Source: Escherichia phage vb_EcoM-VR5. Taken from it: a DNA stretch of 64,000 bases. This document shows, one piece after another, positions 14,662 through 30,383 of the stretch (position 1 is the first letter of the stretch; each line of letters opens with the position of its first letter). The position numbers were made by a program, and so were the translations under genes. The stretch is from the sequence record NC_028881.1. The stretch is one strand, 5' to 3'. The notes below the pieces were generated by a model. The model was not told the DNA's origin. It saw only the letters and a list, made by a program, of their open reading frames with translations, and did not search any database.

Positions 14662-15183
14662 TTAATAACCTCGGTCCTGACGAGCAAAGTTCTCGGCATT
14701 TTTCAGGTAATACAGTTTAAAGATTTCTTCAGCAGTAAGTCCAAGACCCTGGAACATGTTCAGAACGAAATGGAGAATATCAATCATTTCAAATTTAATT
14801 TCGAGCTGGTCTTCAGGAGAGAGTTCGTCGATACGACGATTACGGAATTCAGCATGCTGAGCTTTCCAAGGCTTCCAGCAACTTGAAGCAGCTTTCTCAC
14901 CATTGCTCATACCACCAAGAGAAGTCAGAAGTTCACGGAATTCATCATCAATATAATCTTTCTGATTACGCAGCCAATCAACAACTTCACCTGCAGTAGC
15001 CAAATCATCAGGGTGACGGTTATATTCAGGTTTATCTTTAGCCAAACGGACCTGTAAAGATTTCTGCATATCAAGCATAACCTGCAGTGGGTCTTTATCT
15101 TCGTGAATCAAGGCATTAAAATAAGCTTCCTCAGCTTTATCAACGCCAGCAATCAAACCACTACACTCATTAAAATGTGCCAT
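14662..15183 (-). CDS. 56: dCTP pyrophosphatase (gp56, MazG-like)
   Basis: 173-aa ORF; size and position as T4 gene 56; RBS AGGAAA. Confidence 0.8.
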   Translation of the reverse strand: MAHFNECSGLIAGVDKAEEAYFNALIHEDKDPLQVMLDMQKSLQVRLAKDKPEYNRHPDDLATAGEVVDWLRNQKDYIDDEFRELLTSLGGMSNGEKAASSCWKPWKAQHAEFRNRRIDELSPEDQLEIKFEMIDILHFVLNMFQGLGLTAEEIFKLYYLKNAENFARQDRGY

Positions 15184-21246: not shown

Positions 21247-22411
21247 TTAAATCCATCTCTTCTAAATCGTTTTCGATATCAGCAGCGCTTTGAGCGTCCC
21301 CACTCAATTTAACTGCAACGTTCTTAGAGACTCGAGAGTTAATAAGGTCGTTCACCGCATCGTCAACTTCTTTAATAGAATTAATTGCACCAAGCTTATA
21401 CTTATTCTCGATTGCTGCACGGAACGGAGCATGTTTAAACAGTGGTCCCCAGAACTCGACACAATCAGTAGCTTTAGCGCGCCATGATTTTTCTTCTTGA
21501 ACCATTTCACCTGTGGTTTCGTCAAGAAATGCACGATTATACCAGCCAGCTTTAGGTTTGACGACAAAACCAATTTCAGTGGCCATTTCAAGCAGACCAC
21601 TAAACGGATCGATACCACCTTCAAAGTTCACGGTAATTGGGAACGTTGATTTCTCTTTAACCGTACGAGATTTCTCTGCTTTCAAGGTGAAGTCATAACC
21701 GGTGAGCTCAGTACCATCTTTAACCTGGCGTTTAGAAATAAAGAACACGGTAGAAGCAGAATACAGAATACCAGTACCACCACCCATAATCTCTTTAGGA
21801 TACATTCCACCAATTTCCATAGCCGTGTGGTTAATTGCTACGCAAGGGATATCCTTGATGGTCAGATATGGGGTAACGATACGGAACAAAGATTTCAGAG
21901 ACTTAGCACGAGTCATATCACCTACAACTTTCTCGTTCAAAGCATCTTCGGTTTCTTTCTTAGAAGCTGTGTTACCAATGGAGTCGATAAATATAATAAC
22001 CTTTTCGCCACGGGTAATTTCTTCTAATTGGTTAGTCATGTCAACCTTCAGTTGTTCGACTGACTGGATTGGTGTGTGGACCACACGTTCCAGGTCAACA
22101 CCCATTGAACGGAAATAAGATTCTGAAGCACCAAACTCAGAGTCATAGAACAAACAAATTGCGTCTGGATATTTCTTCATATACGCCGCGACCATAGTTA
22201 ATCCAAACAGAGTTTTAAAGTGTTTAGATGGAGCAGCAAAGATTGTCAAACCTGATTGCAAGCCTGCATTCAACGCACCGCCTAATGCAATATTAAGCAT
22301 AGGAATACGAGTAGGAACTTCATCACGCCCATTAAACAATTTGGATTTGGTCAGGTCGGCGGTCATTTTAGAAGTAGAAGCTTTAATCAAACGGGATTTT
22401 AAATCAGACAT
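21239..22411 (-). CDS. uvsX: UvsX recombinase (RecA-like)
   Basis: 390-aa ORF; RecA fold; T4 UvsX is 391 aa. Confidence 0.9.
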   Translation of the reverse strand: MSDLKSRLIKASTSKMTADLTKSKLFNGRDEVPTRIPMLNIALGGALNAGLQSGLTIFAAPSKHFKTLFGLTMVAAYMKKYPDAICLFYDSEFGASESYFRSMGVDLERVVHTPIQSVEQLKVDMTNQLEEITRGEKVIIFIDSIGNTASKKETEDALNEKVVGDMTRAKSLKSLFRIVTPYLTIKDIPCVAINHTAMEIGGMYPKEIMGGGTGILYSASTVFFISKRQVKDGTELTGYDFTLKAEKSRTVKEKSTFPITVNFEGGIDPFSGLLEMATEIGFVVKPKAGWYNRAFLDETTGEMVQEEKSWRAKATDCVEFWGPLFKHAPFRAAIENKYKLGAINSIKEVDDAVNDLINSRVSKNVAVKLSGDAQSAADIENDLEEMDLND

Positions 22412-22454
22412 TATATTTTTCCATAGGCATCATTATATTTTACTCACGTTTTAA

Positions 22455-22480
22455 GATAGGGTAATTATATCACTTCACAA
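22455..22480 (-). promoter_or_regulatory. extended -10 promoter upstream of uvsX
   Basis: TGATATAAT followed by TACCCTATC. Confidence 0.4.
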
Positions 22481-22488
22481 TTACAGCA

Positions 22489-23382
22489 TTAAAGGACCAC
22501 GTCCTCATAACGTGGCATTTCGTACTCGGAATGAATATGGGCACCAAAATAAATGAATTCAGCCAAACCAGGATGGAATACTAAACCCGGGTTCTCATGA
22601 TAAATGATATGTGGTCTTGATTTCAGAATCTGGTAATATTCAACCTTACTCGGTTTGAATTTAATAATCTCTACATCAGGACGATAGTCTCCACGTTTAA
22701 ATGAATCGTTGGGGTCGGTGATATAGAGTCGAGCACCTTCAGCCGCAGCTCGGTCTACAACTCGTTCGAATTGATAGCATTTATCAGAGATACGAAATGG
22801 GTGAAAAATACCATCAATTTTAATAGGCGCTAGACCATCAGAGTAACGCTCAATTACTGCCGGATTAATTACCTTTTGGTCTACAAAAATCTTATCAGAG
22901 GATGCACCTCGTGACACCAGGACGTCTTTCTGGCATTGATTCAGGACTGTAGTATAAATCGAACGTTCGACTGAAGAAACATCAATATCAATAAACTCGT
23001 CGATATAATAACGAGGAACTTCAGGGTCCATTGTGATATTAAAGTTGAATTGTACAGTCTGGGCACCATCATAACCTGTGATATCAGTTACCAACCCTGA
23101 GCAGTCGTAGTATTCGATTAATGAATCGACTACGAACTCGTTTTCAGACCAGAAATGTTTACGGGTTTCATAAGCATTTTCTTTATACCAAAGTGGCACA
23201 AAATTCAGTTCAGGGAATAACTCGATGCACTGATTGATATCGCTCGAATTTCTAGGATAAGCCAGATAATCACCTGGCCGAGCACGGTTTAAATGGAGTT
23301 GAAAATTGCCGTCCTTAAGGACAGCATATTCACCCGTTTCGTAACTACGCATACTGAAAATAGGAACGATAAACAGACTCAT
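22489..23382 (-). CDS. unknown protein occupying the T4 beta-glucosyltransferase slot; candidate DNA-sugar transferase
   Basis: 297-aa ORF; no resemblance to recalled T4 beta-gt; ATGA-coupled to hydroxymethylase gene. Confidence 0.7.
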   Translation of the reverse strand: MSLFIVPIFSMRSYETGEYAVLKDGNFQLHLNRARPGDYLAYPRNSSDINQCIELFPELNFVPLWYKENAYETRKHFWSENEFVVDSLIEYYDCSGLVTDITGYDGAQTVQFNFNITMDPEVPRYYIDEFIDIDVSSVERSIYTTVLNQCQKDVLVSRGASSDKIFVDQKVINPAVIERYSDGLAPIKIDGIFHPFRISDKCYQFERVVDRAAAEGARLYITDPNDSFKRGDYRPDVEIIKFKPSKVEYYQILKSRPHIIYHENPGLVFHPGLAEFIYFGAHIHSEYEMPRYEDVVL

Positions 23383-24077
23383 TTCAGAAAACCTCGGACG
23401 TAGTCAAAATCACGTTCAAATACGTGTGCACTAACCATGGTGTGAGAATACGTACCCAAACCAACACCACACTGCTCTGCAATAAAGGCCATCAGTTTAC
23501 CCTGCAGATAGAAATCAAGCTGCATAACAACGGCACAGTTCTGTGAACGCATATGGGTATGTGCATACAAACGACCGTCACGAATGTAATACGTCACCGA
23601 ATCAGTACAAGGATATTCTAGGGATTCGTCAGAATCAAGGAGAGCTTGGTCTTGTTCTTGGAGAATCTGGAACACAACTCTTCGCGAGTTAGGCTTTTCT
23701 TTAAGCTCTTTAAGTAGGGCTGGGAGCTGGGCCACAATTCGAGGTCCATAGAAAGTGTTGAAGTTTGCAGGCAATACGTCACTTTTCGGCTTATCAATGA
23801 ACTTAGCAACATTAGGGTATTCCTTAAATGCTTCGGAGGCATCAGTACCACCGGAAATCATAAACTTCCAAAAGGATTCAGCGTATTCATAACTAATACG
23901 ATTGATGCGTGGGTCGGTGAACTTGAACGTGCTAGCATCAAGAACTTCTACTGAAGCCGAACCGACTTCATAACAACGGCCGATACGAGAATCTACTGCA
24001 AACTGCGGAGCTTCAAGGATTTCTTCGTTCATTTGTTTAAATGCATTTTCAAAACTAACAGCGGTAATGTGTTTCAT
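23379..24077 (-). CDS. 42: deoxycytidylate hydroxymethylase-like enzyme (thymidylate synthase fold)
   Basis: 232-aa ORF; PNSRR, PCTD nucleophile and Asp 31 residues after Cys align with T4 gp42 NPDSRR, MCTNT, D179; overall divergent. Confidence 0.7.
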   Translation of the reverse strand: MKHITAVSFENAFKQMNEEILEAPQFAVDSRIGRCYEVGSASVEVLDASTFKFTDPRINRISYEYAESFWKFMISGGTDASEAFKEYPNVAKFIDKPKSDVLPANFNTFYGPRIVAQLPALLKELKEKPNSRRVVFQILQEQDQALLDSDESLEYPCTDSVTYYIRDGRLYAHTHMRSQNCAVVMQLDFYLQGKLMAFIAEQCGVGLGTYSHTMVSAHVFERDFDYVRGFLK

Positions 24078-24610
24078 TTATTCACCTTATTTTCAATATA
24101 TTCATTCAGACGTTTTAATTCTACCATATCAACATTAAGCAAATTATTATGGCCGTCATGATTTAAGATTTTAAACACGTTTTCAAAACATGTTTCGTAT
24201 TGTCTGACAGTTAGGTTGAACTCATCTTTAGTTAATTTAATAAGGTCGTCTTCGAAGTCTTCGTCTAACGGATTACGAGTTAAAATAACCTCGATAATGT
24301 TAAATTCAGATTTGAACCCTTTCCAATCTTCCAGTTCTACATAAGGGTCCATTTCACCACGAAGGAATCCCGAGTAAACAATATTACTAGGATACCCACG
24401 GTCTAAGATATAGACAAAATTTGGGTCTAAAAACTTATACAGAGTTTCAACTAGAGCCTTATCATTATCAGTTCCTAATGAAATACATTTGCCATTAATC
24501 TTTTTAGGAAAATCAATAAGGCGGTATTTCTTATCGGATAACAGATTTTTAATTAAAGTAGACTTCCCGGAATTATCCGGGCCGTCTATAACAATGATTT
24601 TTGGATTCAT
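24074..24610 (-). CDS. P-loop nucleotide kinase, thymidylate-kinase-like
   Basis: 178-aa ORF; Walker A IVIDGPDNSGKST; DRGY-type motif YILDRGYPSNIVYSG. Confidence 0.7.
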   Translation of the reverse strand: MNPKIIVIDGPDNSGKSTLIKNLLSDKKYRLIDFPKKINGKCISLGTDNDKALVETLYKFLDPNFVYILDRGYPSNIVYSGFLRGEMDPYVELEDWKGFKSEFNIIEVILTRNPLDEDFEDDLIKLTKDEFNLTVRQYETCFENVFKILNHDGHNNLLNVDMVELKRLNEYIENKVNK

Positions 24611-24990
24611 GGATGATAGGCCTTATAACTATCAAGAGTTCCTTCACGAACCATTTCTTTAAAGTGGTCGGGCCGGATTGCTCGGTCATCGATGATAAAA
24701 GTATAACTCGGCTTGTGTGTAAGCAAATTGTGATATTTCAATCCAATTTTTTCAAGGTTCTTAACCAATGCCGGAACTACTTCAACCAATATTCGGCCAG
24801 GGCCACATGAAGTCATACCACGGGCGGTGAACAATGTAATCTCACACCCTTCATCATAAAGCTTGTTAATCATGGACACCATTTCAGTGTCCGGTTTAAA
24901 GTTTTCATAATCACGGTCATGATTCCAAATCGTGATTGTGTTATCGATATCAAAACATAAATGCGGCTTATTTTCTACTCGATGCGACAT
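24607..24990 (-). CDS. HAD-superfamily phosphatase
   Basis: motif I CFDIDNTIT, motif II TLFTAR, motif IV FIIDDRA; start set at ATG overlapping upstream stop (TAATG). Confidence 0.65.
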   Translation of the reverse strand: MSHRVENKPHLCFDIDNTITIWNHDRDYENFKPDTEMVSMINKLYDEGCEITLFTARGMTSCGPGRILVEVVPALVKNLEKIGLKYHNLLTHKPSYTFIIDDRAIRPDHFKEMVREGTLDSYKAYHP

Positions 24991-26663
24991 TAAATTTTCT
25001 TCCATTGTTTGTGGAGTTCAGTAGAACCTGTAGGTTTATATTTTACACCAGTTTCCTGGTCAAGCAAAACCCACTTATCAGGACAACGAGTAATAATTTG
25101 TGCCGTAATAGGGTCACGAACTTCATCAACGAATTCACCTGTAATAAGCTTACGCTTACGAGGGTGCCGCTTCAGCAGCACACTCAGTTGGTACAAACCG
25201 TTGTAATATGCGCCAAGAGCTTTCAGAGGATTATTCTTAAAGTAACCTGCTAGCGCCATCCAAATAACAGCAATCCAGAGCTTGTGCTTAAATGTACACA
25301 TCGGAATATCGTCTAAAGGCATGACCTTTTCAATATCAACGAATACACGAGTTCCATTACGGGTTAAGCCACCCCATAGAGGGTCTGAGTTAAATTTATC
25401 ATAGCCATCGATAGAATAAAGCACCTTAGCTTCGTCATAAATCGCGGGGCCTTTAGAACTATTACCGAAATAACCACGTGGGTCGATGATTTTAATATCA
25501 CCTTCGTCCGACAGCATAATATTACTGTAGTGCGGGTCGCCATGAATAAGTTGATACGGTTCTTTATGTTCAGACAGAATTTCTAGTGCATGACGAAGAA
25601 GTTTTTCAGGGTCTCCTACCTTGAAGTCGTTAACATGGGTGATGCCCTGTGGAGAAAAGCCTTCAATCAATCCAGCAATAGAAGCATTACGAATCAGGAC
25701 CTTGTCCAATACTTCTTTCTTAACATCAGAATACCATTGCTCATCAGATGGGTTATCGATAGTTCCACCAAATGAACGTAATGCACTAATGACCTTATAA
25801 ACCATGAGCACTTTAGTTTCTTTAGACATAAACCGGTAGGCATCTGCCATGGTGCGACCAAAGATACGTTCCATTTTAATGAATTCACCTGGCGCAAAGT
25901 CTACAATGCTCGGAACGAATTCAGAATCAATAGAATTATACCAATTGATTTCTTTAGATTGAATTTCTTTACCTAATTCGTTGGTTGGTACTTTAATAGC
26001 CAGATTCTCAGTGAATTCTAATTTATTAAATTCACGATTAATTTCAGAATCTTCATGGGCCTTGGCCAGCTTCAGTTTATCACCAACATCAACTACAAAG
26101 TCCAGCTTACGTTCAGACAAATAAACCATTGAATCCAGGTTATCCGCAAGGTCTTCACCATAATTAGAACGGTCGAATCCTGTCCAATTCGCCACCTGAT
26201 ACAAACCAACTACACCGCCACCTGTACCAATTTCACGTAAGTACGGTTCTTCAAATGTAAACCGACAATCGGTCCCATAGGTATAACAGTAGTCGTTATC
26301 CCACTCAACTTTATGGCCTTCAGGAATTATGTCACACCAGTTAAATAGAACGTTATGCCCAATAATATCTTCAGCAATGCAATCGATAGCATGGGCCGAA
26401 CCGTTAGCAACATCCACATTACGAATAGTGAACTTGGGCTTATCGCCTGTAATCATATTAATCGATTTAATATAGCCTTTAACGAGGTCGTTAAATTTAC
26501 TGTGAATAACCAGAATAATTTCATCTGATTGGTTACTATACAAATCATACAAATGCTTTAATACCGTATGTTGTTTATAGTTAACCAATACCTTAGGGAT
26601 TTCATTAGTAATTGGATACAACCGTGAGCCAAGACCTGCGCCTAAAATAACAACCTTTTTCAT
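24990..26663 (-). CDS. bifunctional sugar-phosphate nucleotidyltransferase / APH-ChoK-like kinase
   Basis: N-terminal GAGLGSRLYPIT (NTP-transferase signature); C-terminal HGDPHYSNIML and IIDPRG (Brenner-type kinase motifs); RBS GAGGAA before ATG 26663. Confidence 0.75.
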   Translation of the reverse strand: MKKVVILGAGLGSRLYPITNEIPKVLVNYKQHTVLKHLYDLYSNQSDEIILVIHSKFNDLVKGYIKSINMITGDKPKFTIRNVDVANGSAHAIDCIAEDIIGHNVLFNWCDIIPEGHKVEWDNDYCYTYGTDCRFTFEEPYLREIGTGGGVVGLYQVANWTGFDRSNYGEDLADNLDSMVYLSERKLDFVVDVGDKLKLAKAHEDSEINREFNKLEFTENLAIKVPTNELGKEIQSKEINWYNSIDSEFVPSIVDFAPGEFIKMERIFGRTMADAYRFMSKETKVLMVYKVISALRSFGGTIDNPSDEQWYSDVKKEVLDKVLIRNASIAGLIEGFSPQGITHVNDFKVGDPEKLLRHALEILSEHKEPYQLIHGDPHYSNIMLSDEGDIKIIDPRGYFGNSSKGPAIYDEAKVLYSIDGYDKFNSDPLWGGLTRNGTRVFVDIEKVMPLDDIPMCTFKHKLWIAVIWMALAGYFKNNPLKALGAYYNGLYQLSVLLKRHPRKRKLITGEFVDEVRDPITAQIITRCPDKWVLLDQETGVKYKPTGSTELHKQWKKI

Positions 26664-26723
26664 TATCTGTTCCTCAAGTGAATGTAGGTACATTATACAC
26701 TATTTTTAATAAATTTCTATTGC

Positions 26724-27224
26724 TTAAATCTTATCTTTACCGTATTCCATGCATTGTTCTACTGCAGCGGGCACTTTGGTCTTAAGCTTATTGATTTGTT
26801 TCTTATAATCACGGGCCTTATCAAAGCTTTCGGTTTCTAGCATTTCGTAATAACGAGCTTCATGGATAGAAACCTGCAGATTGATATGGTTTACACACAT
26901 AGCATACAGTTTCTGCTTTTTGTACAAATCATCTTGTCGCTTCATTTCTGCCTGGTGTTTGGCTAGTACCGCTTCTCGCTTAGACTCTTGTTCACGTTGG
27001 AATTCTATTTCACGAGCCGCATATTTACCGCAGTTATTTCCGCATTGGTTGTTAGCACGAGTATAAGTAATGCCTGAACCTGCACGGAACTTAACTTCAC
27101 CATCATACTGCTTCTGTTCAGCAGCAATACGAGCTTTACCTACTTCATCAGCCGTAACAACTTCACCGTATTGGACCGCACAACCAGAGAGTAATAATGA
27201 CGCTGCGATAATTAGCTTTTTCAT
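26724..27224 (-). CDS. putative lipoprotein (166 aa)
   Basis: signal peptide with lipobox LLSGC. Confidence 0.6.
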   Translation of the reverse strand: MKKLIIAASLLLSGCAVQYGEVVTADEVGKARIAAEQKQYDGEVKFRAGSGITYTRANNQCGNNCGKYAAREIEFQREQESKREAVLAKHQAEMKRQDDLYKKQKLYAMCVNHINLQVSIHEARYYEMLETESFDKARDYKKQINKLKTKVPAAVEQCMEYGKDKI

Positions 27225-27370
27225 GATGGTTCCTTAATTAAAACATTCAAATTTGATTTGTAAGATTAACATTACCCAAGCCAAGATAAGAGTTGGAATC
27301 ATTGGTGGGACTGTCACTGCAAAATAAACAGTCATTAACACAAATATGAGTAAGAGTAAACCGGTTATAA

Positions 27371-27607
27371 TCATTGTTTAACCACGATAATCTGTGCGTT
27401 TGTTTTACGTTCGGCTGCGATAGACCAAATCAGTGCAACCACCCACCCAATCATCGTCCAACCTAACAGAAGGTTAAGCACAAAAATTCCACCATTGCTT
27501 CGAGTACCACGTAGTAATGCGATAATCCATGGTAAGAAATAACCGATGAACATAACAGCAAGAGAACCAATACCAAACACACCAGCACCGACGATTAAAG
27601 CTTCCAT
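27371..27607 (-). CDS. two-TM membrane protein, Imm-like
   Basis: 78-aa hydrophobic ORF adjacent to gene 43 as T4 imm. Confidence 0.5.
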   Translation of the reverse strand: MEALIVGAGVFGIGSLAVMFIGYFLPWIIALLRGTRSNGGIFVLNLLLGWTMIGWVVALIWSIAAERKTNAQIIVVKQ

Positions 27608-27671
27608 TGTAATTTCCTCTTAAGTAGTTGATAGGAAGGATAATACCACGTTCCATGTGGTATGTAAACAA

Positions 27672-30383
27672 TTAAAAGTCGAACATGTCAAATAACGTTG
27701 CTTTTTTCTCGTAGTCGATTTTAGCAGACTCAGTAAAACCGGTCAGAGGTTTGATAAAGGTCTTTTGGAACAATACGTTGTAGTCCATCCAACGGAGAAC
27801 TTGGTCGCGAATCTGAACTGGAAGCTCAATACCTGACGGCCAGGCCATACAAGCTTCACCAAACGGGTTACCTTCTTTAAGTGGCAGTACATATACCTTT
27901 TCACCATCAACGATACGAGGCATAGTCAAATCACCTGCAGATGCACGCATGTAAGCTAAGCAACCTTTGATGTGGTATGGACATTTAGAACCAGGGAACC
28001 CGCCTTCATTATATTTCTCAATGTTGTTAGCACTTGATACTGCAGCAATGCTTACATAGTCCAGTTCGTTGAATTCTTTATTAAACTGTTTGAAATATTC
28101 TTGCAAAGAAGCCTCGCCTTCTTGAAGCATACGACGGATACATTCTTTCAGAGCTTTCTGAACAGCTTTAGGTGTACTTGATTTCTGGGTTTCGAGACCC
28201 ATGATTTTCAAGTGAGGTTCGGCATAACGGGTGCCTTCCATGTCCCAAACGTTCAGTGCATAACGTTTCTTACCAGTCCAGAATCCACCAAGACCTTTAG
28301 AACCGAGTGGTGGGCCTGCGATAGCTTCTCGGTCCATGAACATCAAGTGTTCTTTATTATTAAGGTATTCAGCTAATTCGCGGAAGGCCTTATCTATAGC
28401 AGGTTCCATACGTTCAGATGCAAACTTACTTAAGAAGTCGACCCAATGGTTGGTATCACGGAATTTATCTTCACCTACTTTATCGATGATTGCATCAGCT
28501 TTAACATAGATGGAGTCCGTATCTCCATAGAGCACGAATTTCTGGTTTTCAGTCTTACACACTCTATTCAGATATTCGTTAACCTTACGTTCAATCCATT
28601 GGAGGGCCATTTGACCAAACAATGTGATTGCTGTAGCGTTACGCAAGTCATAGTAACGGAACCATACGTTACCAAGTGCACCATAAAGGGAGTTGATAAG
28701 CAACTTACGGTTAATCTGAGCGGTGTTACCTGCTACTTCAGTACGTTCGGCTTTGAACAACATTTCTCTTAAAGAAGGCGCTGACAACGATTTAATCTGA
28801 GATTTGATTTCTTCAGAGAAGTCAAATCGATAGTCGATATCCAGTGGACTATCAACAGACAGATTAGGATTTTCTAATGCTTCTTTAATTAACTCACCGT
28901 TACGTTGGGCTGCAAGCATATAACCTTTATGTTCTTTACGTTGTAAGAACACCTTCGTGATTTCTGTAGGAATCACACCATCGCGGTCTTTAAAATACAT
29001 CATGCCGTTAGGAGAGCAACTGTAGGTATCGCTAGGACGCGGAGCAGTTCCGGCAATATATTCATGTATCGGCGCATTAGCGAATGTCCCTGCGATGGTC
29101 TCTGGGCTAATATTCACTTGTCGAATGATACTCGGGTATAGAGATGTAAGGTCGAAACTCATTACATATTTGTAGGCATTAGGAATCGGTTCCTTAACGA
29201 AAGCACCAGGATAAGGTTGAACCATATGCGACCTAGCCTGAGGAATTACCTTACCCTGTTCTTTAAGACTGTTAAAAATGATAGCGTCCCAAGTCTTAAT
29301 AGGGCTGAACACCGACTGAATCTGCATCTTGGCATAGTAACCCATGTCTAGACTCAGAAGAATGAACTGGCGCTTCATATCAATCTGCACAACACGATAT
29401 ACGTCGATAATGTTATAGGAAATATATCGTTGGTGGTTAGTCTCACGTAATTTAGAGATCGGACCATCGTATTTCAACTTACCTACTTTCAATTCATATT
29501 CAGAAACATAATCCAGAGAATAAGATGGTTGGTTGGTAAAGCTGAATTTTTTATAAAGGTCGATATAGTCCAGAACCGAGATACCGAACAGTGTAATGAT
29601 TTCACGAGCACCATACATGTTCTCGATAACTTTAACACGAGTCTTACGATGTGGGCTTAATCGCTTAGCGGTGTTCTCACCAAACAGATTTTTCAGACGG
29701 TTATAAACGTACGGCACGTCAAATGATTCAACGTTCCAACCAGTCAAAATCACAGGAGTTTTCTGTTGCCAGAAGTTTAGGTATTCAAGCATCATTTCTT
29801 CTTCAGAATTAAACGGAAGATAAACGATTTTGTCAATGATTTCCTGTGGAACTTCGTCGCCGCCTTCGTCTTGGAGTTTCTCAGCGATTTTAATCGACCA
29901 CTCTTCGACCGTACCATAAGGTGAAACTAAAAGGTCAAATACATAGAATTTATCGTCAATCGAGTCGTAGTGAGTAATGGCATCGATAGGATGTTTAGCC
30001 TGGGCTGGTTCAGGGAATCCGTCAGGAGATGTTACCTCGATGTCGAAGTTAGCAATACGAATCTTAGAAGAATCATACTTGATTTCTTTACGATAGGTAT
30101 CAGACAAATATGCTAATTTATAGTCGTCCATACCAAGGGCTTCAAGTCCCATATCGTCCATGCGCTTCATCCACTGGGATGCATCCCGCATAGAATTAAA
30201 TTCTTTCTTAATACAACCTTTACCGTAGATGTCAATATATTTTACGGCTTGTTCTGGGTTGGCATGCATAAACATCGTAGGCTTGTAAGGAACTTCACGA
30301 CTACGTTCTTTGCCATTTTTATCGATGTATCGTTCGAGAATATTATCACCGATTTGTTCGACTGTCAAATAGAATTCTTGCAT
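27672..30383 (-). CDS. 43: DNA polymerase (family B, gp43)
   Basis: start at MQEFYLTVEQIG (track ORF has N-terminal extension); exo motif FDIEV, pol motif YGDTDS; strongly resembles RB69 gp43 from memory. Confidence 0.92.
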   Translation of the reverse strand: MQEFYLTVEQIGDNILERYIDKNGKERSREVPYKPTMFMHANPEQAVKYIDIYGKGCIKKEFNSMRDASQWMKRMDDMGLEALGMDDYKLAYLSDTYRKEIKYDSSKIRIANFDIEVTSPDGFPEPAQAKHPIDAITHYDSIDDKFYVFDLLVSPYGTVEEWSIKIAEKLQDEGGDEVPQEIIDKIVYLPFNSEEEMMLEYLNFWQQKTPVILTGWNVESFDVPYVYNRLKNLFGENTAKRLSPHRKTRVKVIENMYGAREIITLFGISVLDYIDLYKKFSFTNQPSYSLDYVSEYELKVGKLKYDGPISKLRETNHQRYISYNIIDVYRVVQIDMKRQFILLSLDMGYYAKMQIQSVFSPIKTWDAIIFNSLKEQGKVIPQARSHMVQPYPGAFVKEPIPNAYKYVMSFDLTSLYPSIIRQVNISPETIAGTFANAPIHEYIAGTAPRPSDTYSCSPNGMMYFKDRDGVIPTEITKVFLQRKEHKGYMLAAQRNGELIKEALENPNLSVDSPLDIDYRFDFSEEIKSQIKSLSAPSLREMLFKAERTEVAGNTAQINRKLLINSLYGALGNVWFRYYDLRNATAITLFGQMALQWIERKVNEYLNRVCKTENQKFVLYGDTDSIYVKADAIIDKVGEDKFRDTNHWVDFLSKFASERMEPAIDKAFRELAEYLNNKEHLMFMDREAIAGPPLGSKGLGGFWTGKKRYALNVWDMEGTRYAEPHLKIMGLETQKSSTPKAVQKALKECIRRMLQEGEASLQEYFKQFNKEFNELDYVSIAAVSSANNIEKYNEGGFPGSKCPYHIKGCLAYMRASAGDLTMPRIVDGEKVYVLPLKEGNPFGEACMAWPSGIELPVQIRDQVLRWMDYNVLFQKTFIKPLTGFTESAKIDYEKKATLFDMFDF

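What the first reader, a model, noticed from the sequence alone, without database searches (positions are those of the whole stretch)
23379..24077. Divergent gene-42-like hydroxymethylase that keeps the cytosine-specifying Asp
The protein has thymidylate-synthase-fold hallmarks (PNSRR phosphate-binding region, PCTD nucleophile). An Asp lies 31 residues after the catalytic Cys, the same spacing as D179 in T4 dCMP hydroxymethylase, implying a cytosine substrate. Yet it is far more divergent from my recollection of T4 gp42 than neighbouring proteins are from their T4 counterparts, and it is followed by its own TMK-like kinase.
Basis: partly seen in the sequence, partly recalled or inferred. Interest (0 to 1): 0.5.

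Follow-up and report, generated by a model that had tools for sequence, protein, structure and literature searches.

The report
Known flavin-dependent dCMP 5-hydroxylase, not hydroxymethylase
This gene of a JS98-like (Dhakavirus) T4-type phage has a thymidylate-synthase fold but belongs to the recently characterised enzyme family that adds a hydroxyl group (not a hydroxymethyl group) to dCMP, so that the phage can attach arabinose to its cytosines; the family is remarkable, but it has been published since 2025.

Summary
The sequence observation holds. A 232-aa ORF on the minus strand (23379..24077) has a thymidylate-synthase fold, PNSRR (129-133), PCTD (156-159) and an Asp 31 residues after the Cys (C157, D188). 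It is 24% identical to T4 gp42, while neighbouring proteins are 43-77% identical to their T4 counterparts.

The substrate is probably dCMP, but the enzyme is not a hydroxymethylase. It is 80% identical to RB69 gp48 and 81% to phage HY126 AfhB (PDB 9IQU "dCMP hydroxylase"; 9IQC, with dCMP and FAD). Both make 5-hydroxy-dCMP using a flavin and O2.

It carries the published diagnostic Asp-to-Asn change at the position of E. coli ThyA D169 (N180 here). It has also lost two other ThyA active-site residues, W80 and G173, which T4 gp42 keeps.

It sits in a five-gene, tightly packed module: AfhE-like arabinose-phosphate kinase/UDP-sugar pyrophosphorylase, HAD phosphatase, P-loop kinase, hydroxylase and glycosyltransferase. 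Dhakaviruses are already named in the literature as carrying this cluster.

The P-loop kinase accompanies the hydroxylase in 45 of 51 viral loci, with or without arabinose genes. The Dhakavirus module lacks a phage arabinose-5-phosphate isomerase, a second transferase and the U32-like gene.

Verdict: already known; modest interest.

The parts
23379..24077 (-). AfhB-type dCMP 5-hydroxylase (5-hydroxy-dCMP synthase) with a thymidylate-synthase fold, 232 aa. Key residues, with E. coli ThyA equivalents: R31 (R21), R132/R133 (R126/R127), E154 (L143), C157 (C146), R177/S178 (R166/S167), N180 (D169), D188 (N177), H218 (H207).
   Evidence: 80% identical to RB69 gp48 and 81% to the PDB 9IQU/9IQC sequence. 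AF2 model pLDDT 90.6; best Foldseek hits are 9IQC and 9IQU.
24074..24610 (-). P-loop nucleotide kinase (TMK/YorR/PPK2-like fold), 178 aa. P-loop GPDNSGKST; invariant DRG at residues 70-72. Inferred to phosphorylate the modified nucleotide (5hodCMP to 5hodCDP); its substrate has not been tested.
   Evidence: PHROG 761 at 2e-39. 37% identical to RB69 gp45. No close PDB sequence relative. AF2 pLDDT 82.6 with weak TMK/YorR/PPK2 fold matches. Linked to the hydroxylase in 45 of 51 viral loci.
24607..25005 (-). HAD-type phosphatase, AfhF-like (RB69 gp51 ortholog). Published role of the homologs: arabinose-1,5-bisphosphate to arabinose-1-phosphate.
   Evidence: 62% identical to RB69 gp51. PDB 9IQW at E=2e-53. 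NCBIfam TIGR01689 capsule biosynthesis phosphatase at 5.5e-14. Literature.
24990..26663 (-). AfhE-like bifunctional enzyme: N-terminal sugar-1-phosphate nucleotidylyltransferase plus C-terminal APH-type kinase. The mechanical ORF runs to 26693; the likely true start is the ATG at 26663.
   Evidence: Pfam NTP_transferase 3e-8 and APH 1.6e-5. 41-44% identical to RB69 gp52:53, with the alignment starting at 26663. The phrog_4098 alignment starts at residue 11. JS10 annotates 557 aa. Function of the homologs.
22489..23382 (-). Putative DNA arabinosyltransferase 1 (ortholog of RB69 gp46:47), 297 aa. It is the only glycosyltransferase candidate found.
   Evidence: 65% and 68% identical to RB69 gp46 and gp47. 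phrog_3891 at 1.6e-157. No Pfam, NCBIfam or PDB sequence match. Assignment taken from PMC13326640 Table 1.
14665..15183 (-). gp56 dCTPase/dUTPase. It destroys dCTP and supplies dCMP, the substrate of the hydroxylase.
   Evidence: 95% identical to RB69 gp56. JS10 annotates the ortholog as gene 56.

Best explanation
The gene encodes a flavin-dependent dCMP 5-hydroxylase (5-hydroxy-dCMP synthase; the AfhB / RB69 gp48 family) of a Dhakavirus (JS98/JS10-like T4-type coliphage). Proposed pathway, with the basis of each step:

1. gp56 dCTPase removes dCTP and yields dCMP (inferred from T4 biology).
2. The TS-fold enzyme binds dCMP through the conserved phosphate-binding arginines and the cytosine-specifying D188. 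C157 probably activates C5 by attack at C6, as in thymidylate synthases (inferred). A flavin-oxygen species derived from O2 then hydroxylates C5, in place of methylene transfer from folate. O2 as the oxygen source and the bound flavin are shown for orthologs that are 80-81% identical.
3. 5hodCMP is phosphorylated by the adjacent P-loop kinase and/or by the gp1-type dNMP kinase encoded elsewhere in the genome. The gp1-type activity is shown for RB69. The role of the adjacent kinase is inferred from gene linkage.
4. Phosphorylation to 5hodCTP is assumed to be done by a host kinase (my assumption from T4 biology, not tested). The phage DNA polymerase then incorporates it.
5. After replication, the single glycosyltransferase (22489-23382) transfers arabinose from UDP-arabinose. 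UDP-arabinose is made by the AfhE-like kinase/pyrophosphorylase and the AfhF-like phosphatase, starting from arabinose-5-phosphate.
6. Because no phage arabinose-5-phosphate isomerase is present, the arabinose-5-phosphate would have to come from the host, presumably through its KdsD/GutQ isomerases (inferred).

The expected product is mono-arabinosylated 5-hydroxycytosine replacing cytosine. This protects the DNA from restriction and CRISPR nucleases.
For: Identity to characterised enzymes:
- Full-length matches to PDB 9IQU/9IQC at E=6e-127. Their titles are 'phage HY126 dCMP hydroxylase-AfhB with substrate dCMP' and 'Monooxygenase dependent on riboflavin with dCMP and FAD'.
- 80% identical to RB69 gp48. 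RB69 gp48 produced 5hodC in E. coli DNA, incorporated 18O from 18O2 and co-purified with an FMN-like flavin (PMC13326640).

Active-site signature:
- D169N is N180, N177D is D188 and L143E is E154.
- These residues are invariant in 39 homologs of 48-98% identity retrieved independently of any motif.
- D169N is the published diagnostic; nine diverse D169N enzymes all made 5hodC.
- T4 gp42 has D/C/D/D at the four signature positions (ThyA 143/146/169/177), and td/ThyA have L/C/D/N.

Structure: AF2 model pLDDT 90.6, with top Foldseek hits 9IQC and 9IQU, then MilA, then thymidylate synthases.

Context:
- Orthologs of RB69 gp46:47, gp45, gp51 and gp52:53 form one overlapping same-strand block with this gene, and gp56 dCTPase is in the window.
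- The window is 93-96% identical to Dhakavirus genomes.
- Dhakaviruses are named in PMC13326640 as carrying the syntenic cluster.
- No T4 beta-gt and no second gp42-like gene is found in the window or in the complete JS10 genome, which has a separate td.
Against: - No biochemical or DNA-composition data exist for this protein or, in the literature I could search, for any Dhakavirus. The function is transferred from orthologs that are 80-81% identical.
- The flavin is named inconsistently across sources: FMN-like, riboflavin/FAD in the PDB titles.
- The catalytic role of the Cys in hydroxylation is my inference.
- The Dhakavirus module lacks the phage arabinose-5-phosphate isomerase, and its AfhE-like enzyme is only 41-44% identical to RB69's. 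The identity of the sugar is therefore less certain than the hydroxylation step.
Confidence: 0.9

Rival explanations
1. It is a divergent folate-dependent dCMP hydroxymethylase (a functional gene-42 equivalent) that makes 5-hydroxymethyl-dCMP.
For: TS fold with the Cys and the cytosine-specifying Asp. An acidic residue sits at the ThyA L143 position, as in gp42. The gene occupies the gene-42 slot between uvsX and gene 43. Some records annotate it as 'deoxycytidylate 5-hydroxymethyltransferase'.
Against: Only 24% identical to T4 gp42. The ThyA D169 equivalent is Asn, and W80 and G173 are replaced, whereas gp42 keeps all three. Orthologs of 80-81% identity are proven 5-hydroxylases that use O2 and a flavin. 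No hmC glucosyltransferase is present. The earlier 'arabinosyl-hmC' assignment for RB69 has been explicitly corrected.
Confidence: 0.03
2. It is a genuine thymidylate synthase (dUMP to dTMP), as RefSeq and many phage records name it.
For: It matches Pfam and PHROG 'thymidylate synthase' models and is annotated that way in many records.
Against: Asp instead of Asn at ThyA position 177. All NCBIfam thymidylate-synthase equivalog scores fall far below their cutoffs, for example 62.9 against 174.55 and 43.8 against 327. The closely related JS10 genome has a separate canonical td with the L/C/D/N signature.
Confidence: 0.01
3. It is a dCMP 5-hydroxylase, but in Dhakaviruses the final DNA modification differs from the published arabinosylation: a different sugar, or bare 5-hydroxycytosine. 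The reason would be that the module lacks the arabinose-5-phosphate isomerase, the U32-like gene and the second transferase, and its sugar-activating enzyme is divergent.
For: RB69 gp55, gp50, gp49 and gp3 homologs are absent from the window and from the whole JS10 genome. The AfhE-like enzyme is only 41-44% identical to RB69's. Other 5hoC phages use hexoses (RL38J1). Many metagenomic loci carry the hydroxylase, a GT and the kinase without arabinose genes.
Against: The HAD phosphatase (62%) and GT1 (65-68%) are close to their RB69 counterparts. E. coli has its own arabinose-5-phosphate isomerases, KdsD and GutQ (my own knowledge, not tested). Marfavirus-type Klebsiella phage loci also lack the isomerase yet keep the rest of the module.
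Confidence: 0.06

Closest known systems
Phage HY126 AfhB, dCMP hydroxylase (PDB 9IQU, 9IQC, 9IR2; He et al., Nat Chem Biol 2026, known to me only through PDB titles and citation in PMC13326640)
   Same: 81% identical over the full length. Same length class, same C/N/D/E active-site signature and the same gene neighbourhood type.
   Different: HY126 AfhB is nearly identical in sequence to RB69 gp48, so HY126 is probably a Mosigvirus-type phage; this was not checked against its genome. RB69-type genomes also encode an arabinose-5-phosphate isomerase, a U32-like protein and a second transferase that are absent here.
RB69 gp48 and Acinetobacter phage DLP3 gp80, 5hodCMP synthases (PMC13326640)
   Same: 80% identical to RB69 gp48 and 71% to the DLP1 protein, a DLP-type ortholog (DLP3 itself was not in hand). 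Carries the D169N/N177D/L143E signature and is linked to GT1, a TMK-like kinase, a HAD phosphatase and an AfhE-like enzyme.
   Different: Gene order differs: here the kinase lies between the HAD phosphatase and the hydroxylase, whereas in RB69 it lies beyond GT1. The kinase is only 37% identical. The single transferase predicts mono- rather than di- or tri-arabinosylation.
T4 gp42 dCMP hydroxymethylase (PDB 1B5E family)
   Same: TS fold, Cys nucleophile, Asp specifying cytosine, acidic residue at the L143 position, short C-terminus, and the same genomic slot between uvsX and gene 43.
   Different: 24% identity. gp42 keeps ThyA D169, W80 and G173 and uses methylene-THF to add CH2OH. This family has N, A and V at those positions and adds OH from O2 via a flavin.
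MilA CMP hydroxymethylase (PDB 5JNH/5B6D)
   Same: The best non-family match in both sequence (E=6e-14) and structure (TM 0.8).
   Different: About 25% identity; a folate-dependent hydroxymethylase acting on a ribonucleotide in antibiotic biosynthesis.
E. coli ThyA / phage td thymidylate synthase
   Same: Fold, the phosphate-binding arginines, the Cys, the R166/S167 pair and H207.
   Different: 17% identity. ThyA has N177 (uracil), D169, L143, W80 and a roughly 45-residue C-terminal extension that is absent here.

Membership tests
5-hydroxy-dCMP synthase / dCMP hydroxylase (AfhB, RB69 gp48 family) | Thymidylate-synthase fold | tested here: met
   Pfam PF00303 at 5e-14. AF2 pLDDT 90.6; Foldseek top hits 9IQC and 9IQU, then MilA and thymidylate synthases.
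5-hydroxy-dCMP synthase / dCMP hydroxylase (AfhB, RB69 gp48 family) | Asn at the position of E. coli ThyA D169 (the published diagnostic D169N) | tested here: met
   N180 aligns with ThyA D169 and T4 D171. Invariant in 39 family members. Criterion taken from PMC13326640.
5-hydroxy-dCMP synthase / dCMP hydroxylase (AfhB, RB69 gp48 family) | Catalytic Cys (ThyA C146), Asp at ThyA N177 (dCMP specificity) and an acidic residue at ThyA L143 | tested here: met
   C157, D188 and E154, all invariant in the family alignment.
5-hydroxy-dCMP synthase / dCMP hydroxylase (AfhB, RB69 gp48 family) | Close sequence relationship to experimentally validated members | tested here: met
   80% to RB69 gp48, 81% to HY126 AfhB, 81% to the Serratia phage 92A1 protein and 71% to the Shewanella phage Thanatos-2 protein.
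5-hydroxy-dCMP synthase / dCMP hydroxylase (AfhB, RB69 gp48 family) | Linked glycosylation and nucleotide-pool genes (DNA glycosyltransferase, NDP-sugar synthesis, dCTPase) | tested here: met
   GT1, HAD phosphatase and AfhE-like genes are contiguous with it, and gp56 dCTPase lies at 14665-15183. An arabinose-5-phosphate isomerase and a second GT are absent.
5-hydroxy-dCMP synthase / dCMP hydroxylase (AfhB, RB69 gp48 family) | Flavin binding and O2-dependent conversion of dCMP to 5hodCMP | not testable with these tools
   Shown only for the orthologs (PDB titles).
T4 gp42-type dCMP hydroxymethylase | Retention of ThyA D169, W80 and G173, three active-site residues that T4 gp42 keeps | tested here: not met
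   The query has N180, Ala and Val at these positions; T4 gp42 keeps D, W and G.
T4 gp42-type dCMP hydroxymethylase | Orthology-level similarity to gp42 | tested here: not met
   24% identity (E=3e-12 for the pairwise comparison), against 43-77% for neighbouring genes. phmmer E=5e-6 to 1B49, against 6e-127 to 9IQU.
T4 gp42-type dCMP hydroxymethylase | Accompanying hmC glucosyltransferases | tested here: not met
   No T4 beta-gt homolog in the window or in the JS10 genome. T4 alpha-gt was not used as a query, and no alpha-gt gene is annotated in the JS10 stretches read.
T4 gp42-type dCMP hydroxymethylase | Methylene-THF-dependent hydroxymethyl transfer | not testable with these tools
   Requires an enzyme assay.
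Thymidylate synthase (ThyA/td) | Asn at position 177, and scores above the curated equivalog cutoffs | tested here: not met
   D188 instead of Asn. The best NCBIfam TS equivalog scores 62.9 bits against a cutoff of 174.55.
Thymidylate kinase (for the adjacent 178-aa protein) | Score above the family threshold, and close structural similarity to thymidylate kinases | tested here: inconclusive
   A P-loop and a DRG motif are present. Pfam Thymidylate_kin scores 15.4 bits against 27. PHROG 761 scores 2e-39. Foldseek TM 0.5-0.58 to TMK, YorR and PPK2 with E of about 1e-3 to 1e-4. This places it in the nucleotide-kinase fold class; membership of the TMK family is not shown.

The most novel reading that the evidence does not exclude
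The hydroxylase and the small P-loop kinase may form an obligatory two-gene core of all 5-hydroxycytosine systems, whatever sugar is added later. The kinase would then be the dedicated 5hodCMP kinase, working alongside or instead of the gp1-type dNMP kinase. The Dhakavirus version would be a minimal five-gene module that depends on the host for arabinose-5-phosphate and makes only mono-arabosyl-5hoC. Neither point is addressed in the papers I could read. He et al. 2026, which I could not read, may already cover the kinase.
Probability: 0.45. Interest if true: 0.35.

Novelty: already known. Interest (0 to 1): 0.2.

Why it matters
This enzyme family is a striking case of a folate-dependent methyltransferase fold converted into a flavin/O2 monooxygenase. 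It underlies arabinosyl-hydroxycytosine DNA, which changes how phages evade or trigger restriction, CRISPR and type IV systems. For this window the practical value is correct annotation. Databases label these genes variously as 'thymidylate synthase', 'dCMP hydroxymethylase' or 'hypothetical'. Dhakavirus phages, which are candidates for phage therapy, should be expected to carry O-arabinosylated 5-hydroxycytosine rather than glucosyl-hmC. That affects sequencing, cloning, restriction analysis and predictions of sensitivity to host defences. The finding is not new: the family and its presence in Dhakaviruses were published in 2025-2026.

Tried and rejected
- A literature search by PDB codes (9IQU/9IQC/9IR2) returned only false hits. 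The entry titles came instead from the Foldseek PDB search.
- He et al. 2026 (doi 10.1038/s41589-026-02150-z) is not held, and a search for Afh gene names found only PMC13326640. The Afh nomenclature for the kinase and the transferase therefore remains unknown to me.
- One poorly chosen literature search was swamped by the term 'AAT'.
- The promoter/terminator scan of 22300-27700 gave counts at chance level (17 sites against 17.6 expected). I therefore make no claim about the transcription unit beyond the overlapping start and stop codons.
- PDB sequence searches with the kinase and GT1 found nothing.
- The word-indexed homolog search with the kinase gave only 9 hits. Its structural model therefore rests on a shallow alignment, and the fold matches are weak.
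- The 51 viral loci were retrieved partly through a peptide pattern that contains the diagnostic Asn. Their uniform N180 is therefore not independent evidence. The independent evidence is alignment A2.
- The MAFFT column for the ThyA E58 equivalent is unstable. HMMER's alignment to MilA places it at E67, while MAFFT shifts it by two residues. I make no claim about that residue.
- I considered and rejected the idea that the U32-like RB69 gp50 is needed for hydroxylation. It is absent here and from the Acinetobacter phage loci.
Full report
**What is at the coordinates**

The interval 23379..24077 is a 232-aa ORF on the minus strand with an ATG start. Its start codon overlaps the stop codon of the preceding gene (ATGA), and an AAGGTG ribosome-binding site lies 7 nt upstream. 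It matches Pfam Thymidylat_synt at E=5e-14, above the gathering cutoff.

PNSRR is at residues 129-133 and PCTD at 156-159. Asp188 lies exactly 31 residues after Cys157. In alignments with T4 gp42 and E. coli ThyA, C157 and D188 fall in the columns of C148/D179 and C146/N177.

- The protein is 24% identical to T4 gp42.
- The surrounding proteins are 43-77% identical to their T4 counterparts: UvsX 67, gp41 65, gp43 61, gp44 67, RegA 77, gp62 51, gp40 49 and Imm 43.

**Where the window comes from**

The region is 93-96% identical at the DNA level to Dhakavirus genomes (ESCO10, JS10, JS98, CLB_P2 and others). The protein is 98% identical to the JS98 and JS10 proteins. Those records call it 'hypothetical protein', 'thymidylate synthase' or 'deoxycytidylate 5-hydroxymethyltransferase'.

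**What the protein is**

A sequence search of the PDB gave two full-length matches at E=6e-127 (9IQU, 9IQC/9IR2). These score far better than MilA (6e-14), thymidylate synthases (1e-7 to 1e-10) and T4 gp42 (5e-6).

An AlphaFold2 model built on 39 homologs (pLDDT 90.6) returned the same entries as the best Foldseek hits, with their titles:
- 9IQU: 'phage HY126 dCMP hydroxylase-AfhB with substrate dCMP'.
- 9IQC: 'Monooxygenase dependent on riboflavin with dCMP and FAD'.

The protein is also 80% identical to RB69 gp48. Lee et al. (NAR 2026, PMC13326640) report the following for RB69 gp48 and DLP3 gp80:
- They convert dCMP to 5-hydroxy-dCMP.
- The oxygen comes from 18O2.
- The purified protein carries an FMN-like flavin.
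- The arabinose of RB69 DNA is attached directly to C5 through this oxygen, not through a hydroxymethyl group.

The earlier 'arabinosyl-hmC' description of RB69 has been corrected. The same paper names Dhakaviruses among the groups carrying the syntenic cluster.

**Signature residues**

PMC13326640 identifies Asn at the position of ThyA D169 as diagnostic of 5hodCMP synthases. Nine diverse D169N enzymes were tested and all made 5hodC.

At the four signature positions (ThyA 143, 146, 169, 177) the pattern is as follows:

| Protein | 143 | 146 | 169 | 177 |
|---|---|---|---|---|
| Query | E154 | C157 | N180 | D188 |
| RB69 gp48, DLP1, RL38J1 homologs | E | C | N | D |
| T4 gp42 | D | C | D | D |
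| JS10 td and E. coli ThyA | L | C | D | N |

R31, R132, R133, E154, C157, R177, S178, N180, D188 and H218 are invariant in 39 family members of 48-98% identity found by a motif-independent search.

Two further ThyA active-site residues that T4 gp42 keeps, W80 and G173, are Ala and Val in the query. This fits a change of cofactor.

All NCBIfam thymidylate-synthase equivalogs score far below their cutoffs. The phage group has a separate canonical td.

**Gene neighbourhood**

On the minus strand, five genes are packed with overlapping start and stop codons:

| Order | Coordinates | Product | Identity to RB69 counterpart |
|---|---|---|---|
| 1 | 24990..26693 (probable true start 26663) | Nucleotidyltransferase + APH-type kinase | 41-44% (gp52:53) |
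| 2 | 24607..25005 | HAD phosphatase | 62% (gp51) |
| 3 | 24074..24610 | 178-aa P-loop kinase | 37% (gp45) |
| 4 | 23379..24077 | dCMP hydroxylase | 80% (gp48) |
| 5 | 22489..23382 | 297-aa putative glycosyltransferase | 65-68% (gp46:47) |

The phosphatase matches PDB 9IQW at 2e-53. According to PMC13326640, which cites He et al., the HY126 homologs AfhE and AfhF turn arabinose-5-phosphate into UDP-arabinose. The route runs through arabinose-1,5-bisphosphate and arabinose-1-phosphate. A gp56 dCTPase lies at 14665-15183.

Several genes have no homolog in the window or in the complete JS10 genome:
- RB69 gp55, arabinose-5-phosphate isomerase.
- RB69 gp50, U32-like protein.
- RB69 gp49.
- RB69 gp3, the second arabinosyltransferase.
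- T4 beta-glucosyltransferase.

JS10 does encode gp1 dNMP kinase, td, frd, cd, alc, denA and denB elsewhere.

I therefore infer two things. The product is mono-arabinosyl-5-hydroxycytosine. The arabinose-5-phosphate is supplied by the host, presumably by its KdsD/GutQ isomerases (my knowledge, not tested).

**The kinase**

- It has a P-loop and an invariant DRG motif.
- PHROG 761 matches at 2e-39, but the Pfam TMK score is below threshold.
- It has no PDB sequence relative.
- An AF2 model (pLDDT 82.6) gives weak matches to YorR, PPK2 and thymidylate kinases, with TM 0.5-0.58.

To find out which half of the pathway it belongs to, I examined 51 viral contigs encoding family members with iterated profile searches:
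- The kinase lies within about 3 kb on the same strand in 45 loci.
- The six exceptions are contigs cut near the gene, or the single 28%-identical outlier, which has a gp42-type signature.
- The HAD, AfhE-like and isomerase genes occur in only 28, 30 and 21 loci.
- About twenty loci with more distant hydroxylases (45-60% identity) have the kinase, most of them also a GT, but no arabinose genes.

The kinase thus follows the hydroxylase rather than the sugar. This supports, but does not prove, a role in phosphorylating 5hodCMP. PMC13326640 demonstrated that step only for the gp1-type kinase.

**Mechanism**

Shown for orthologs of 80-81% identity: dCMP is the substrate, 5hodCMP is the product, the oxygen comes from O2, and a flavin is bound.

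Inferred here:
- C157 acts as the C6 nucleophile, as in thymidylate synthases.
- D188 reads the cytosine.
- N180, together with the loss of W80 and G173, reflects the switch from folate to flavin.
- The adjacent kinase acts on the product.
- A host kinase and gp43 complete incorporation.
- The single GT arabinosylates the DNA after replication.

**Comparison and novelty**

The protein meets every sequence-testable criterion of the AfhB/gp48 family. It fails those of gp42-type hydroxymethylases and of thymidylate synthases (see the membership table).

The family, its signature and its presence in Dhakaviruses are published, so the finding is already known.

No chemical analysis of Dhakavirus DNA turned up in the searchable literature.

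Noticed in passing
window 24074-24610 (-); loci L013-L063: The small P-loop kinase accompanies the AfhB-family gene in 45 of 51 viral loci, including about 20 that have no arabinose-pathway genes. The six exceptions are truncated contigs or a gp42-type outlier. RL38J1 likewise has a TMK-like gene two genes from its hydroxylase, plus a gp1-type dNMP kinase nearby.
   Followed up: partly
window 22400-27300 and the whole JS10 genome (L001, L007, L008, L010-L012): The Dhakavirus module lacks homologs of RB69 gp55 (arabinose-5-phosphate isomerase), gp50 (U32-like), gp49 and gp3 (second arabinosyltransferase). Marfavirus-type Klebsiella phage loci (L017, L018, L056) also lack the isomerase but keep the U32-like gene.
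   Followed up: yes
window 24607-25005 (-): This HAD-type phosphatase (NCBIfam TIGR01689 capsule biosynthesis phosphatase; PDB 9IQW at 2e-53) is named 'phosphoheptose isomerase' in RefSeq records and in PHROG 1238. This looks like a propagated misannotation.
   Followed up: partly
window 26663-26723 (-): The mechanical ORF of the AfhE-like gene starts at 26693, but homolog alignments and the JS10 annotation point to the ATG at 26663. A sigma-70-like TAGAAA-16-TATAAT site at 26719-26692 lies just upstream, but promoter-like sites in the region are no more frequent than chance.
   Followed up: partly
window 26724-27224 (-): A 166-aa ORF with a lipoprotein-type signal (MKKLIIAASLLLSGC; phrog_1754, unknown function) occupies the slot where RB69 has its arabinose-5-phosphate isomerase. 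Small membrane ORFs and an imm homolog (27371-27607) follow, before gene 43.
   Followed up: no
GenBank OM386655.1 (phage ESCO10), hits H1/H33: The features listed under the match (rIIA, rIIB, DNA endonuclease IV) do not correspond to the uvsX-to-gene-43 sequence found there. The annotation of that record appears to be out of register with its sequence.
   Followed up: no
window 22412-22488, between uvsX and the glycosyltransferase: This window has a 77-nt intergenic spacer, whereas JS10, JS98 and CLB_P2 have about 200 nt (BLAST splits into two pieces; record span 4985 against 4862 nt). CLB_P2 annotates a 43-aa ORF in the extra stretch.
   Followed up: no
RB69 locus L003 8493-9662 (gp50): The RB69 cluster contains a gene annotated as 'peptidase' (U32-like by fold in PMC13326640). 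From my own knowledge, bacterial U32-family proteins (RlhA, TrhP) are needed for 5-hydroxycytidine and 5-hydroxyuridine in rRNA and tRNA. This may be a coincidence and its significance is unknown. The gene is absent from this window.
   Followed up: no
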